In this document: piece after piece, positions 1-61,869 of the stretch
Position numbering within the stretch: the first letter of the stretch is position 1
Layout of the letters: every line of letters starts with the position of its first letter
DNA from: the human T2T-CHM13v2.0 reference genome, Homo sapiens
NCBI RefSeq assembly: GCF_009914755.1
Contig: NC_060947.1
DNA length: 64,000 bases
Direction: 5' to 3' (one strand)
The notes under the pieces: model-generated
What the model was told of the DNA's origin: nothing
Database searches by the model: none
The model's input: the letters and a program-made list of their open reading frames with translations, nothing else
Program-made: the position numbers and the translations under genes

Positions 1-536
1 GAGACAACTTGTTCCGTATAACCTGTAACATAAGGAATACTACAGCAATGTCTTCAGACTGAAGGGAAATAACCCTTCATGGAAATTAAAAACTATAGAA
101 AGGAGCCAAGCACACTAGAAAAGAAAATTACGTAGATAAATATGTCAATTTTTCTACTGATTTTGGAAAATAACCCAACTTATAAAACAAAACTGATGAT
201 AACATTGTATATGTAAAATATATGAAAACAACACCACAAAGGAAAGAGGATGAAAAGGAAATAGAGTGTTGTGAAGTTAACATTTATGTGCAGTGGTACT
301 AACATAGTTCCAAGTAGAATAAGATAGGATAAAGATTCATATGCCAATCCCCAAAGCAACAATTCAACACAGTATAGGTAGTAATCAGGTTACTATGGCA
401 GTATAATGAATTCTCCAAAAACTTATATTTTGTAATATACTCATTATTTACTGTTTTAGTTTCCAAATAGGATATACTTCAATAAAAGTACTGCCACCAT
501 ATTGCTCATACCTGGCACATGTTAGATGCTGAAGAA

Positions 537-817
537 AAATGTATTGAACTTATGGATATTTAACTTGAAATAAATTAATATAATGATAAAAAAAGATGCA
601 CTCCTTGGGAAGATAATTTGCATTAACAGAAATTGTTTATCTTAGGCACATATAGATTGAATAAATTTTCTATAAAAGAAAAATTTACAGACTCACAAGT
701 ATTTCGATAACTAGTATTTGTAAAGATGAACACTTCCACTGAAGAGGCAAACAAGCCTCTTTCAGTCCAAACACCCTGCTGAGAAAAACTAGGAAATCTG
801 GAAGATATTAAAGATAT
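537..817 (+). repeat. Direct repeat, copy 1 (pairs with 2947-3227)
   Basis: About 85-88% identical by eye over ~280 bp, e.g. gaacacttccactgaaga and cagactcacaagtatt in both. Confidence 0.9.
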
Positions 818-2946
818 TGTTTGAAGGCACCATAAACCAAAGGAAGAAAGCAGATAGGATCCCAGGAGACAAGCTTGTGTAATGAGAAGCACTCAAATTT
901 GCTACTGCTTCTCGCTTGAAGGCTTTTGCTGACTTTAAGGATGTGATTGAGGATCCACGATGCTCAGCAGAATGTTGTAGCTGAGCAGCTAAGCAGCTGT
1001 GAAGGACATTCAGGAGTTTCATCCAACCAAGAGGATGCAGATTAGACCTAACAGTGAACAAAGGAAACAAGCCAGGGAAAACAAACCAGAGGTTCATTTG
1101 GCATCCCCAAGGAATTATATCTTGATATTGATATAAACCTAAAATAGAAAACTCCACACAAAACCTGAGATCCAGTTTCCAAAGAAGTCAATCTCTGATT
1201 GTAATGAGATGAACTATCCCGACCCTAACTGCCTCTCAAATGCAAAAGCAACGATATACCACCCTAGAAAGTCCAATTACCTCTATATGACTTCATACAG
1301 AAAAGCCAGGCTACAATCAAAAGTAGCCACAAATGCAGAAAGCAAATTGGAAGGAAAGGATTTAGCATCAGACTTGGGATCCATTTTCTCCATTTACTGA
1401 GGACGCCTCAAACAGAAAGAACTAAGACGTGATTTTACACCCATGCAATTTAGAACAACAGTGGGATACCACTAAATGCCTATTATATGAACAACAGCAA
1501 AAAATACAGACCACAAAAAGTTCTGGCAAGGCTATAAAGCAAATGTAACTCTCCTACACTGCTGGTAGAGTGCAAAACAGTATATTCACTGCGGAACACA
1601 TCGACATATTCTAGAATAACTGAAAGGCAGAAATATCATGTGATCCAGTCATTTTGTTCCTTTAAATTTTTCCAAGAAAAAATGATATTATATGTCCATA
1701 CAAAGACTCCTAGAAGAATGTCCATAACATGGGAAAGGGTGGAGAGCCTGGGCAAGATCAAAGGGAAAAAGAACAAGGTTCATAAGAAACTATGGTGCAC
1801 GATGAGTGGATATTTACATTATCTTGATTGTAGTATTGGTTTCTTAAGTATACACATATTAAAACTTTTATGTTAACTTTAATGTTGTACAGTTTAAGTC
1901 AATTATACTTCAATAAATCTATTCCAAATGTGCCATACGCACCAAATGTCTCAAAGAAAGTTAAGACCATTAAACTCAAAAGAGAAAGTTTGAAGACAGA
2001 ATACTAAGAAATTTAATATTTATATGAAATATTTAAGACAGAATAATCCTCCAGAATAAATTGGAAAAAAATTGATTTAAGCCAAAAAATGAAAAACTAA
2101 AATTAAATCAATAAATGAATATTTTTAATTACATTAAATATATTTTTGATGTTGTTTTTCTTTTTTTTGAATAGAGCACAAAAATGATAAACCCTTGACA
2201 ACAATTCTCAAAAAAAGCCAGGCATTATCATTATCAGGAATGTAAAGAGGATTATCACTACAGCTCCTTGAGACATATACATAATATGTTAAACAAAGTT
2301 ATGTTGATAAATTTGAAGTTACATGAGATCAGTAAATTCTAGAGAAAAAAATCAGCTTATCAAGAACAAAAAAAAAATTAGGAAATCTCAATAATTCTAT
2401 ATCTATTTAACAAATTACATCTGTAATTAAATCCTTCCTACCAATGATTCTACACAGTACTGCTTGATGACCTACACTCATTACCATGAGAAAGTATGCC
2501 AACTTTGAACAATCTCTTCCAGACAAAAGAAACATTTCTCAGTTATTTTATTAGACTGCTATAAGCTTTACACCAAAATAATATCACAAAGAAGATATAA
2601 GAAAGGAAAATCAATGGTTTACAGTGAAGAACTGGAGAAATGGAGCTCTATCTTTCCAATGCTGAAAGAAAAAAGAGAAAACTGCCAATCCAGAATTCCA
2701 TATGTAGAAAAATTTTGCTTCCAAACTGATAGTGAAATAAGATATTCAAACCTGAGACAATTTGCCACTGGGAAAACTATAAAACAAATAATGCTAAATG
2801 AAGCCATTTAGGGTAAGGGAAGATAACATCTTACAGAAATTAAGAATTTTAGGAAGGAGTGAAAAACCCTGAAAAGGGAAAATATGTGGATAAATATATA
2901 ATATGATTTTCTATTATTTATTTAAATGATAACTGAGATCAATGAT

Positions 2947-3227
2947 AAATGTACTGAAGTTACAGATATTTAACTTGAAATAAATTAAGTATAATGATAC
3001 AAATGATGCACTCCTTGGTAATATCATTTGCCCTAACAGAAATTGTTTATCTTAAGGACATATAGATTGAACACATTTTCTATAAAAGAAAAATCTACAG
3101 ACTCACAAGTATTCCAGTAACTAGTATTTGCAAAAATGAACACTTCCACTGAAGAAGTAAACCAGCCCCCTTCAGTCCAACCATCCTGCTGAGCAAAACT
3201 AAGAAATCTGGAATATATTAAATATAT
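2947..3227 (+). repeat. Direct repeat, copy 2 (pairs with 537-817)
   Basis: Colinear with 537-817. It bridges an L1 ORF1 fragment on the left and an L1MD-like 5'UTR on the right. Confidence 0.9.
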
Positions 3228-59440: not shown

Positions 59441-59740
59441 TTTTTTTTTTTTTTTTTTTTTGAGACAGTCTCGCTGTGTCACCCAGGCTGGAGTGCAATG
59501 GTGTAATCTTGGTTCACTGTAACCTCTGTCTCACAGATTTAAGAGATTCTTGTGCCTCAGCCTCCCGAGTAGCTGGAACTCCAGGCACGTGCCACCATGC
59601 CCAGCTAATTTTTGTATTTTTAGTAGAGATGGGATTTCGCCATGTTGGCCAGGCTGGTCTTGAACTCCTGATCTCAGGTATTCTGCCCACCTTGGCCTCC
59701 CAATGTTTAGGATTACAGGCGTGAGCCACCACCTCCAGTC
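59441..59740 (-). mobile_element. AluSx-like
   Basis: Antisense dimer, TSD cattatacaacattctt. Confidence 0.92.
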
Positions 59741-60165
59741 TCATTATACAACATTCTTCAATCATTCACGCACACACACACACACGTGCACACACACGTA
59801 CACATGCACGCACGTAATCTTTGATGAAGAACAGATTATTGACTGCTGGAAATCAGGAATGGGAGGGAGGTAGGGGCTGCAGTGGTGGGATGTGGGTGTG
59901 CTTATAAAGTGCAACACAAAGCATCCTTGCAATGACTGAGATGTACTTTATCTTGGTTGGATCAATGTTAGTATCTTGGTTGAGATACTGTACTATAGTA
60001 TTGCAAGATGGCAAAACTGACTGGAACTGGGTAAAGGTGCATGGGATGTCTCTGTATCATTTCCTACACCGCAAGTAAATGTAGAGTTATCACAATAAAG
60101 ACGGTTTGTAACTTTTTACCAGACAGTTTGGGTTCAATGGATACCAGACAAAACACATGCAAATT

Positions 60166-60474
60166 GGCTGGGTGTGGTGGCTCATGCCTGTAATCCCAGC
60201 ACTTTGAGAGGCCGAGGCGGGCAGATCACGAGGTCAGGAGATCGAGACCATCCTGGCTAACACGGTGAAACCCGGTCTCTACTAAAAATACAACAATTAG
60301 CCGGGCATGGTGCTGGGCGCCTGTAGTCCCAGCTACTTGGGAGGCTGAGGCAGCAGAATGAGGAGAATGGCGTGAACCTGGCAGGCAGAGCTTGCAGTGA
60401 GGCCAGATAGTGCCACTGCACTCCAGCCTGGGCGACAGAGCGAGACTCCGTCTCAAAAAAAAAAAAAAAAAAAA
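60166..60474 (+). mobile_element. AluY
   Basis: gagatcgagaccatcctggctaacacgg, gaatggcgtgaacc and gagcttgcagtgag are Y diagnostics; it also has a small internal duplication. Confidence 0.9.
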
Positions 60475-61869
60475 CTACACACAAGCAAATTAAAACAAAT
60501 TTTTATAAAACAGTGTTTGTGTACACATCCAGTAATGGCAGACCAGACATTTCAGCCCAAACATTATGCTGAAGAAAAATAAACTAAGAAAGATGTAAAA
60601 CTATAACAAACTTCTCTTTGAAGATATCACTAAAATTGATCCCCCATTTCCCCCCCTCATAGAATCCCATCTCAAAGGAGAAAATTGGGAACCCAAGAGG
60701 CAAAGTAAGATGTTGTAGCTGAGAAGCTAAGCAACTGACAAGGGCTTCCAGCAGCTTTTCCAGCCTAGGGAATGCAGATTGCAGCTCAGGATCCATCATG
60801 GAAAGGAAACCTTGGGAAATACCTCAAAGTTTCATTTGACATCACTGAGGAGCTATGCCCTAAGTGTTATATAAACCAGAAACAGAACAATCCTCCCAAT
60901 ACATGAGACCCAGCTTAAAAAGACTCAATCTCTGATTTTGATGAGATGCTCTTCATCCCAATCCCCTGCCTCACTCATGTCACCACCCTAACTGCCTTAT
61001 AGAAGTAAAAGAAAATACTCCAAGAGGGAAGAAAAAATCATTCATTCTCCAATTACTTCTCTAGTATTTCATACACAAATTAATGCTTTCAATCATCAAA
61101 AATCACAGATGCAAAATATGAATGGGAAGGAAAGGATTAACCTCAGGCCTGTGATTTAGTTTTTCCATTTGCTGAGGCTGTCTGGGATAAAAAGAACTAT
61201 AATTTGGTTACACCCATGCAATTTAGAGTAACACTGAGATACCACCACACATCTATCAGAAGGACTACAATGTTAAACAATGACTAAAACAAGTGCTGGC
61301 AAGGATATAGGACAAATGCGACTCTCACACACTGCTAGCAGGACATAAAACAGTCAATAAAGATGCATAACACCTTGATATTTTTTAAAATAACTGAAGG
61401 ATACACTTATCAGGTGATCCAGCCATATCACTCATTGATGTTTACACAAGAAAAACTAAAATATACATCCATATAAAGACTTGAATGTATTGTCCACATT
61501 ATGAAAAAAGAGGAGGACTTGTGGAGAGAAAAAAGGGGAAAATATAAATTTGCACAAGGAAATGAGTAAAGAAATGGCTATGTACATTATCTTGTTTTTG
61601 GTAAAGGTTTCACAAATATTTGTATGCATGTATGTGATATATACATATTTCATATATATACATAAAAAGTTATATTGTTTAAAGTTGAAAATCATTTTTT
61701 AATTCAATTTTATTCCAATGAATCTGTTACAAAGTGTAAGATAAATAAATGTATGTCCTAAAGGGACATTAATATCAATAAATGCAAAATGGAACACTTG
61801 GCAATTTATGATCTGATAATACATCTCAAGATATTATATAGAGAACAGTAATATCAAAACTTTACAGAA

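What the first reader, a model, noticed from the sequence alone, without database searches (positions are those of the whole stretch)
1..61850. Hidden ancient tandem array (~8 units) built from a mosaic of dead transposons
Seen: three independent motifs recur 7-8 times in a fixed order at 4.5-8.5 kb spacing. Junctions between unrelated fragments (L1 ORF1 piece > MLT-like end > L2 3' end > L1 5'UTR-like block > core > L1 3' end) are the same in each copy, which independent insertions would not produce. Copies look roughly 70-80% identical by eye. MLT1, MST, FAM, Alu and L1PA/PB inserts are each confined to one copy. Established: MLT1 and L1MD activity is early eutherian, and repeat masking or >90%-identity segmental-duplication tracks would miss such an array. 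Inference: this is a fossil macrosatellite or non-coding gene cluster amplified near or before the eutherian radiation. It may once have carried a small RNA or exon in each unit, like imprinted snoRNA/miRNA clusters.
Basis: partly seen in the sequence, partly recalled or inferred. Interest (0 to 1): 0.8.

Follow-up and report, generated by a model that had tools for sequence, protein, structure and literature searches.

The report
Ancient decayed tandem array of L1-based units
A stretch of the human X chromosome is a roughly 100-million-year-old head-to-tail array of about twelve 5-8 kb units, built around pieces of dead L1 elements and now so decayed that ordinary repeat finders miss it; it looks like a neutral fossil, not a working element.

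Summary
Self-alignment and profile searches show colinear, same-strand repeats at 62-69% mean identity. They form 12 units, 9 of them in the window, from about -223 to +83,060. One further partial copy lies about 130 kb upstream. None lies in the other flanking DNA examined. Each unit carries an L1 ORF1 C-terminal piece, an L1 ORF2 start in some units, about 1.1 kb of locus-specific DNA, the 3' terminal 0.5 kb of a second L1, ORF2 residues ~238-700 of the first L1, and about 1.5 kb of locus-specific DNA. Eight units share the junction where an L1 3' terminus abuts mid-ORF2. Genome-wide searches find the array-specific parts only at this locus. A ~420-bp dispersed repeat sits in four adjacent units; those copies form one clade against 14 dispersed copies. 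All 27 Alu pieces and several old L1 inserts are private to single units. The tree is star-like with end branches of about 0.24 changes per site. The best reading is tandem segmental duplication in at least two bursts near or before the eutherian radiation, then neutral decay. No RNA family, CpG island, non-L1 protein domain or conserved segment was found. This is a new member of a known kind, of modest interest.

The parts
1..2627 (+). Unit U0 (begins at -223, outside the window): B -223..214, D1 243-621, Z ~600-1376, A 1376-1857, A2 1884-2519. It lacks C, C2a and C2b.
   Evidence: Profile nhmmer; Z.
2628..10315 (+). Unit U1: B 2628-2937, younger patch 2944-3227, S1 3316-3769, old near-full-length L1 (beta) ~4100-8811, A 8924-9403, A2 9430-10020. 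The old L1 is broken by a young L1 piece at 4666-5385.
   Evidence: Pfam Tnp_22_dsRBD matches ORF 2509-2808 at E 1e-5.
10316..17822 (+). Unit U2, the most complete: R1 10316-10767, B 10874-11051, X-like DNA to ~11721, D1 12039-12262, Z 12397-13174, A 13151-13503 plus 15218-15349, A2 15417-16027, C 16052-16659, C2a 16692-17244, C2b 17262-17702.
13495..14769 (+). Private old L1 3' fragment (ORF2 aa 877-1275, 48-58% aa identity to a young L1) that splits segment A of U2.
   Evidence: tblastn; profile hits.
17823..23651 (+). Unit U3, in L1 order: R1 17823-18211, B 18319-18589, X 18594-19028, ORF2 aa 32-107 at 19073-19299, A2 (part) 19291-19578, C 19945-20513, weak ORF2 aa 763-833 at 20617-20838, C2a 22611-23173, C2b 23193-23600. 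It lacks D1, Z and A.
18379..18462 (-). Annotated exon of lncRNA LOC105373150. It lies antisense inside segment B of U3.
   Evidence: Hub annotation given with the finding; B coordinates.
23652..34008 (+). Unit U4: R1 23652-23922, about 2.9 kb of extra DNA including W 25485-26450, B 26812-27237, D1 27262-27642, Z 28400-29025, A 29003-29523, A2 29554-29796 plus 30187-30522, C 30545-31222, C2a 31251-32167, C2b 32191-32435.
34009..38732 (+). Unit U5: R1 34009-34623, B 34718-35178, D1 35203-36007, R2 36043-36514, S 36518-37699 (internally deleted copy of L1 gamma), Z 37533-38322, A 38299-38602. It lacks A2, C and C2.
38733..45790 (+). Unit U6: R1 38733-39181, B 39294-39778, D1 39802-40199, R2 40219-40634, A 40684-41171, C 42467-42799, C2a 42832-43150, extra R1 43217-43630. 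An inverted R1+C2b patch lies at 43965-44925.
45791..52941 (+). Unit U7: B 45791-46717, D1 46748-47128, R2 47152-47575, A 47618-48080, A2 48113-49145, C 49177-49547, C2a 49614-49929, C2b 50495-50946. Private L1 pieces lie at 48573-48937 and 50956-52223.
52942..64000 (+). Unit U8 (runs on to +67,830): R1 52942-53093, D1 53076-53429, R2 53457-53900, S1 53906-54147, old near-full-length L1 (gamma) 54707-59429, S3 59823-60568, Z 60512-61174, A 61151-61620, A2 61698-61882. A2 resumes at 64195, outside the window.
40219..40634 (+). R2, a ~420-bp dispersed repeat present in U5-U8 only. This is the reference copy.
   Evidence: Dispersed copies on many chromosomes; local copies form one clade.
9403..9470 (+). 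The A|A2 junction. The 3' terminus of a second L1 abuts ORF2 residue ~238 of the backbone L1. Eight units share this junction.
   Evidence: Seven contiguous alignments span it. Dispersed L1 3' ends stop at about 9465. Sequence read.
16659..16692 (+). The C|C2a junction. Backbone ORF2 at about residue 700 abuts locus-specific DNA. It is spanned contiguously in U2, U4, U6 and U10.

Best explanation
This is a very old tandem segmental duplication, a decayed composite macrosatellite. An ancestral segment of about 5.5-6.5 kb on the X was amplified head to tail at the DNA level. The most likely mechanism is unequal crossing-over between misaligned copies. The ancestral segment held five parts, in this order. 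(1) The 5' part of an L1: the ORF1 C-terminal domain, a spacer and the ORF2 start. (2) About 1.1 kb of locus-specific DNA (D1-Z). (3) The 3' terminal ~0.5 kb of a second L1 (A). (4) The first L1's ORF2 from residue ~238 to ~700-830 (A2-C). (5) About 1.5 kb of locus-specific DNA (C2a-C2b-R1). A first burst gave most units. A ~420-bp dispersed repeat (R2) and then a full-length L1 (beta/gamma) inserted into one unit and were carried along when that unit was re-amplified into the adjacent units U5-U8. Afterwards the array decayed neutrally. Units lost parts by deletion, and each gained private L1, Alu and other inserts. A few short patches were exchanged much later. The array now has no detectable function of its own, although lncRNA LOC105373150 starts in its last unit and uses a piece of U3 as an exon. 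Shown here: the array, its extent, the shared junctions, the single origin of the local R2 copies, the U5-U8 clade and the private inserts. Inferred: the mechanism, the absolute date and the absence of function.
For: Colinear + strand repeats: 102 of 119 non-high-copy HSPs are on the + strand. Array-specific profiles hit 13, 10, 14, 8 and 9 times (R1, D1, A2, C2a, C2b), all between -300 and +83,100. None hit the other 180 kb searched, and 51 of these 54 hits are on the + strand. Whole-genome searches with six unit pieces found the array-specific parts only at this locus and at one partial copy about 130 kb upstream. Elsewhere they found only R2, the L1 RT core, L1 3' ends, the L1 ORF2 start and one 320-bp R1-like piece on contig C1. 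For the D1-Z query all 8 first-look candidates were scored, and all 8 lie at this locus or in the far copy. The A|A2 junction is spanned by contiguous alignments in 7 units besides the query. None of the non-local hits spans it, and dispersed L1 3' ends stop at about window 9465. A maps to ORF2 aa ~1091-1199. A2 maps to aa ~282-429 through consistent weak hits in 3 of 6 copies. C maps to about aa 500-700. R2: the 4 local copies fall on one side of a branch against 14 dispersed copies, with support 94/93, stem 0.048 and 0 of 500 label shuffles as low. In a concatenated tree that excludes R2, U5-U8 form a clade (100/100) and the rest is star-like, with median end branch 0.24. All nine segments have similar mean identity, 0.62-0.69. 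None of the 27 Alu-like pieces shares both unit position and orientation with another.
Against: No orthologous genome could be examined, so the date rests on divergence and a recalled rate. The true duplication boundary is not fixed; only the right end suggests it lies near C|C2a. Whether C2a-C2b-R1 and D1-Z are unique DNA or very old transposon sequence (for example the L1 5' UTR and ORF1 N-terminus) is unresolved. One partial copy lies about 130 kb away and is not in tandem. Absence of function is a negative result from limited tests. The genome search scores only the best first-look candidates (40 of 419, 40 of 91, 40 of 126 and 40 of 169 in four of the searches), so weak dispersed copies could have been missed.
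Confidence: 0.85

Rival explanations
1. The repeats are independent insertions of one composite or non-autonomous L1-derived retrotransposon (HAL1-like) that happened to land side by side in the same orientation.
For: Part of the unit reads in L1 order, seen best in U3: ORF1 end, spacer, ORF2 start, ORF2 aa ~238-830. The spacer end plus ORF2 start has dispersed relatives on many chromosomes. L1s often insert into A-rich tails of earlier L1s (recalled).
Against: The array-specific parts have no copies outside this locus and the far copy. No poly(A) run separates R1 from B in the 6 junctions printed. Units share nested inserts and deletions in a pattern that matches their tree: R2 occurs only in the adjacent units U5-U8, and those units form a clade without R2 in the data. 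Twelve same-strand copies lie in 83 kb and none in the other 180 kb searched.
Confidence: 0.03
2. The array is, or was, a functional element: an X-linked architectural macrosatellite, a non-coding RNA cluster, or an amplified ORF1-type gene family. Today's lncRNA would be its remnant.
For: It is X-linked and has kb-scale units. lncRNA LOC105373150 has its 5' end at +81,002, inside B of the last unit, and an exon inside B of U3 (hub annotation). A CTCF-like motif sits at homologous positions of U3 and U11.
Against: Rfam gave 0 matches. There is no window of CpG-island type. The CTCF-like motif occurs in only 2 of 12 units. All segments are about equally decayed. Only L1 ORF1 domains matched credibly among 150 ORFs.
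Confidence: 0.08
3. The pattern is chance similarity among many unrelated old L1 fragments in an L1-rich, A-rich region.
For: The region is 34% G+C and A-rich on the + strand. It holds many L1 pieces. Generic L1 parts (RT core, ORF2 C-terminus) do cross-match unrelated L1s in the flanks.
Against: Segments with no L1 homology and no dispersed copies (D1, Z, C2a, C2b, R1) recur in the same order with E-values down to 1e-131. They are absent from the equally L1-rich flanks.
Confidence: 0.01

Closest known systems
Composite elements / macrosatellites of the T2T-CHM13 repeat catalogue (Hoyt et al., bioRxiv 10.1101/2021.07.12.451456; passages read)
   Same: [quoted passage not shown] That paper attributes such arrays to unequal crossing-over.
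   Different: As I recall, and not from the passages read, the catalogued composites are high-identity and were found by de novo repeat discovery. This array has 62-69% identity, is invisible to TRF, and its units are riddled with private inserts. I could not see that paper's Table S2 (bioRxiv supplements are closed), so I cannot say whether this locus is listed there.
X-linked macrosatellites DXZ4, FIRRE and ICCE (search listings only; properties recalled)
   Same: X-linked tandem arrays with kb-scale units.
   Different: As recalled, those arrays are CpG-rich, homogeneous and bind CTCF in every unit. Here there is no CpG-island-type window, a CTCF-like motif in only 2 of 12 units, and deep decay.
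Ordinary clusters of nested L1 insertions on the X
   Same: L1-derived, same-strand, A-rich sequence. Several true private L1 inserts lie inside the array.
   Different: The units share non-L1-colinear junctions, locus-specific DNA and a monophyletic nested repeat.
Transposon-derived tandem repeats (Ahmed and Liang 2012, PMC3389668; Warburton et al. 2008, PMC2588610; listing and abstract starts only)
   Same: Tandem repeats whose units come from transposable elements.
   Different: Warburton et al. found their arrays with TRF (abstract), which does not detect this one. I recall, but did not read, that Ahmed and Liang also used a TRF-type tool. Here the unit is multi-kb and far more diverged.

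Membership tests
Tandem array / macrosatellite | Three or more head-to-tail copies of a kb-scale unit in one orientation | tested here: met
   There are 12 units on the + strand from -223 to +83,060.
Tandem array / macrosatellite | Homology runs colinearly through the unit and across the unit-to-unit junction | tested here: met
   Contiguous alignments cover A2-C-C2a-C2b (77387-79623 against 15432-17692) and C2b-R1-B.
Tandem array / macrosatellite | High identity between units or continuing homogenisation | tested here: not met
   Mean identity is 0.62-0.69 per segment. Only four short younger patches reach 81-91%.
Composite element (definition of Hoyt et al.) | [quoted passage not shown] | tested here: met
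   The unit holds an L1 ORF1 piece, an L1 ORF2 piece, a second L1's 3' end and, in four units, R2. The definition was read.
Cluster of independent L1 (or HAL1-like) insertions | Each copy ends in its own 3' terminus and A-tail, with its own 5' truncation point, and the family is dispersed | tested here: not met
   No A-run lies between R1 and B in 6 junctions. The end points are the same in all units. The unit-specific parts are not dispersed.
Cluster of independent L1 (or HAL1-like) insertions | Match of the whole unit order to one Dfam/Repbase consensus | not testable with these tools
   No transposon consensus library was available. Genome-wide searches served as a substitute.
DXZ4-type architectural macrosatellite | A CTCF motif and CpG-rich sequence in every unit (features recalled) | tested here: not met
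   The motif occurs at 18656 and 81082 only, and no window has GC above 0.55 with CpG o/e above 0.6.
snoRNA/miRNA cluster | A known RNA family in each unit | tested here: not met
   Rfam gave 0 matches at gathering thresholds over the window.

The most novel reading that the evidence does not exclude
The array may be the fossil of a eutherian-ancestral X-linked macrosatellite that was once active. It could have been an amplified L1 5'-half transcription unit (ORF1-bearing, half-L1-like), or an L1-rich architectural or silencing station formed when this part of Xp became X-linked. Its living remnant would be lncRNA LOC105373150, whose start and at least one exon lie antisense in the ORF1-derived segment of units U11 and U3, beside a conserved CTCF-like site.
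Probability: 0.06. Interest if true: 0.6.

Novelty: new member of a known kind. Interest (0 to 1): 0.3.

Why it matters
The case shows that multi-kb tandem arrays can persist, recognisably, for on the order of 100 million years. Standard tracks miss them: TRF and segmental-duplication tracks set at 90% identity or more. It also gives a worked example in which nested transposon insertions (R2, then a full-length L1) order the rounds of array growth. If such fossils are common, some DNA now counted as unique or as scattered old L1 is in fact old local amplification. That would affect estimates of transposon insertion rates and of X-chromosome L1 enrichment. For this locus alone the practical importance is modest.

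Tried and rejected
1. Scanning long six-frame translations against Pfam failed. I switched to stop-free ORFs and to tblastn with a natural intact L1 ORF2 taken from the same genome.

2. My first model treated A2 as the 3' UTR of the L1 that ends in A, and A2|C as the key junction. I dropped it when consistent weak tblastn hits placed A2 at ORF2 aa ~282-429 and U3 showed the order ORF2 start, A2, C. The real non-colinear junction is A|A2.

3. I considered a HAL1-like element for B-D1-R2 (recalled idea). I dropped it because dispersed copies of R2 are only ~360-420 bp and do not extend into D1 or B, and because D1-Z has no dispersed copies.

4. I considered R1 as an abundant L1 3' end and rejected it. 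All 24 first-look candidates were scored, and only one 320-bp match lies outside the locus and the far copy.

5. TRF finds no long-period array. Rfam finds nothing.

6. Searches for the lncRNA name and for ancient tandem arrays, macrosatellites or composites turned up no description of this locus.

7. Not done: the remaining 18 + strand and 101 - strand ORFs were not scanned against Pfam. No structure prediction or large protein-database search was needed.
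Full report
**Setting.** The window is T2T-CHM13 chrX:26,908,001-26,972,000. The same genome could be searched (handle G000, contig C23). I fetched 100 kb on each side, so coordinates below 1 or above 64,000 are window coordinates outside the window.

- Self-blastn gave 351 non-self HSP pairs.
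- After removing intervals hit six or more times (Alu-like), 119 pairs remain. Of these, 102 are on the + strand (binomial p 6e-16).
- Of the 46 pairs of 300 nt or more, 43 are + strand, with identity 63.6-76.1% and median 66.7%.
- Single-sequence nhmmer with one unit (38700-45900) found homologues of its parts across the window in a fixed order.
- Tandem Repeats Finder saw nothing with a period above 91 bp. The array is therefore invisible to that tool.

**Extent.** I cut a reference unit into nine segments and made profiles from their local matches. I then searched the 264-kb stretch.
- The five segments without generic L1 similarity hit 13, 10, 14, 8 and 9 times (R1, D1, A2, C2a, C2b).
- All 54 hits lie between -300 and +83,100, and 51 of them are on the + strand. 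None lies in the remaining 180 kb.
- This gives 12 units. U0 starts at -223 and U11 ends near +83,060. Nine of them are in the window.
- A thirteenth, partial copy lies about 130 kb upstream, at C23:26,775,511-26,780,175. It carries C2a-end, C2b, R1, B, X, a piece of the ORF2 start, D1 and Z in the same order.

**What the unit is made of.** As a yardstick I used a natural L1 copy from the same genome with an intact 1275-aa ORF2. PDB entries for L1 ORF2p confirmed that the young fragment at 4909-5415 is ORF2 residues 851-1010. tblastn and nhmmer then gave the following assignments.
- **B** is the ORF1 C-terminal domain. Pfam Tnp_22_dsRBD matches the ORF at 2509-2808 with E 1e-5, above its cut-off.
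- **X plus ORF2 start.** In U3, B is followed by a spacer X (18594-19028) and ORF2 residues 32-107 (19073-19299). U11 and the far copy carry X too. The alignment of the far copy running through to 12028 suggests that U2 does as well. The end of X plus the ORF2 start has dispersed relatives on many chromosomes.
- **A2** is ORF2 residues ~238-485. Three of six copies gave weak hits (E about 0.8-5) to residues 357-389 at mutually consistent offsets, and single copies hit residues 282-326 and 415-429. Reading the sequence, I recognise the start of the post-endonuclease region; that recognition is recalled, not computed.
- **C** follows A2 directly and is the reverse-transcriptase region, from about residue 500 to 700.
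- **Beyond C.** In U11 and, weakly, in U3, ORF2 continues to about residue 807-833.
- **A** is ORF2 residues ~1091-1199 of a different L1. It runs to a genuine L1 3' terminus. Dispersed L1 3' ends found with a query across A|A2 all stop at about window 9465, where the sequence carries an AATAAA-type signal.
- **D1 and Z** (about 1.1 kb) have no L1 protein similarity in any copy at E<5, apart from one lone out-of-order hit at E 2.8. They have no copy anywhere but this locus and the far copy; all 8 first-look candidates were scored.
- **C2a and C2b** have no L1 protein hit at E<5 outside U11's post-C stretch. **R1** has one weak ORF1 hit at E 0.41. None of the three has dispersed copies, except one 320-bp R1-like match on contig C1.
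- R1 runs into B without any A-run in the six junctions printed. C2a-C2b-R1 may therefore be the L1's 5' UTR and ORF1 N-terminus, or unique DNA. I could not decide between these.

**Why this is DNA-level duplication and not a row of insertions.**
1. Junctions that no L1 can explain are shared. A|A2, where an L1 3' terminus abuts ORF2 residue ~238, is spanned by contiguous alignments in seven units besides the query: U0, U2, U4, U7, U8, U9 and U10, with U1 as query. C|C2a is spanned in U2, U4, U6 and U10.
2. Whole-genome searches with six unit pieces found five kinds of match outside the locus. These were a ~420-bp repeat (R2), the RT core (~170 bp), L1 3' ends, the L1 ORF2 start and the single R1-like piece. 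No non-local hit spans a junction. A caveat: in four of these searches only 40 of 419, 91, 126 and 169 first-look candidates were scored.
3. R2 occurs only in the four adjacent units U5-U8. In a tree with 14 dispersed copies, 12 of them picked because they best matched U6, the four local copies sit on one side of a branch. Support is 94/93, the stem is 0.048, and 0 of 500 label shuffles were as low.
4. A concatenated tree of eight other segments, with R2 left out, independently groups U5-U8 (100/100) and U2 with U9 (96/95). The rest, including the far copy, forms a star with median end branch 0.24.
5. A near-full-length old L1 with the same upstream neighbour occurs in U8 and, internally deleted, in U5. 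The R2 end lies 4-6 nt before S1 in both. A copy in U1 is 70-72% identical over colinear pieces. In U6 and U7 about 45-50 nt separate the R2 end from the start of A. I read that as one shared deletion.
6. Later inserts are private. None of the 27 Alu-like pieces shares both unit position and orientation with another. The old L1 fragments at 13495-14769, 48573-48937, 50956-52223 and 73324-74063 each lie in one unit, at different unit positions.

**History and date.** The star tree points to a first burst of amplification. R2 and then the full-length L1 entered one unit. That unit was re-amplified into U5-U8, and a relative of it contributed to U1. Deletions then removed different parts in different units. 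For example, U3 and U11 lack D1-Z-A, U5 lacks A2-C-C2, and U0 and U1 lack C-C2.

End branches of about 0.24 changes per site are close to those of dispersed R2 copies (median 0.22). Pairwise K80 distances are 0.40-0.54. With a recalled mammalian neutral rate of about 2e-9 per site per year, this gives on the order of 100 million years.

Two private old L1 inserts are 72% identical to each other. That is slightly closer than the units are to one another, as expected if the inserts came later.

Much younger local exchanges also exist:
- 534-817 against 2944-3227, at 87.7%.
- 50770-50943 against 54154-54327, at 91.4%.
- A ~1-kb segment W, found only twice in the genome, upstream of B in U0 and U4, at 81-90%.

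**Function.** I found no sign of any.
- Rfam gave 0 matches at gathering thresholds.
- No 500-bp window has GC above 0.55 with CpG o/e above 0.6. The region is 34% G+C.
- All nine segments are about equally decayed, with mean identity 0.62-0.69.
- Of the first 150 of 168 + strand ORFs of 52 aa or more, three matched L1 ORF1 domains. One of these was above its cut-off. One further ORF had a sub-threshold chance match.
- A CTCF-like motif (recalled consensus) occurs only at 18656 and 81082 on the - strand. These are homologous positions in segment X of U3 and U11.
- By the annotation supplied with the finding, lncRNA LOC105373150 (- strand) has its 5' end at +81,002, inside B of U11. Its exon at 18379-18462 lies inside B of U3. 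So the transcript has taken over array sequence. That is the only functional link, and it involves two units, not all of them.

**Comparison and novelty.** By the definition in Hoyt et al. (passages read), this is a composite element: a unit of three or more repeats, including transposons, arrayed in tandem, probably through unequal crossing-over. It differs in being deeply decayed. It does not meet the recalled defining features of DXZ4-type arrays.

Four literature searches found no description of this locus. The supplementary tables of the T2T repeat paper were not visible to me. I file the array as a new member of a known kind, with modest interest.

Noticed in passing
window 61883-64000 (runs to about 64194): A 2.3-kb G+C-rich insert splits segment A2 of U8. 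It has internal 91-bp and 70-bp tandem repeats. Its core, about 62205-63842, is a dispersed repeat with 2919 first-look candidates genome-wide at 65-78% identity. Six ORFs in it have no Pfam match. The family was not named.
   Followed up: partly
window 25485-26450 and -1464..-166: Segment W lies just upstream of B in U4 and U0. The two copies are 81-90% identical, while the adjoining B-D1 is 69%. W has only these two copies in the genome. This points to a much later exchange between two non-adjacent units, or to a relic of the array's left flank. Unexplained.
   Followed up: partly
window 534-817 vs 2944-3227; 50770-50943 vs 54154-54327: Short patches at 87.7% and 91.4% identity sit inside units that are otherwise about 66% identical. 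They are likely later gene conversion or small duplications.
   Followed up: no
window 18656-18669 and +81082 (outside the window), - strand: CTCF-like motif matches, with 0 and 1 mismatch, lie at homologous positions of segment X in U3 and U11. The second is about 80 bp upstream of the annotated 5' end of lncRNA LOC105373150 at +81,002.
   Followed up: no
C23:26,775,511-26,780,175 (window about -132,490..-127,825; loci L040, L041): A lone partial unit copy (C2a-end to Z) lies about 130 kb upstream, still inside the span of the same lncRNA gene. It is as diverged as the array units. Whether it was separated by later insertions or rearrangement, or copied there, is unknown.
   Followed up: partly
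window 43965-44925: An inverted copy of the C2b-R1 junction region lies inside U6, next to an extra + strand R1 at 43217-43630. This is a local inversion or duplication.
   Followed up: no
window 14777-14993 vs 15599-15381: An 81% inverted repeat sits beside the private L1 insert and CA/TG-rich runs inside U2. One arm is an inverted piece of A2.
   Followed up: no
window -6247..-1896 (outside the window, left of U0): A near-full-length old L1 (ORF1, then ORF2 aa 112-1236) abuts the left end of the array. It may have destroyed or displaced the array's original left boundary.
   Followed up: no
window 4679-4784 vs 56432-56327: A 106-bp inverted match at 95% identity links the young L1 piece in U1 to a site inside L1 gamma in U8. 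It is probably two young L1-derived fragments.
   Followed up: no
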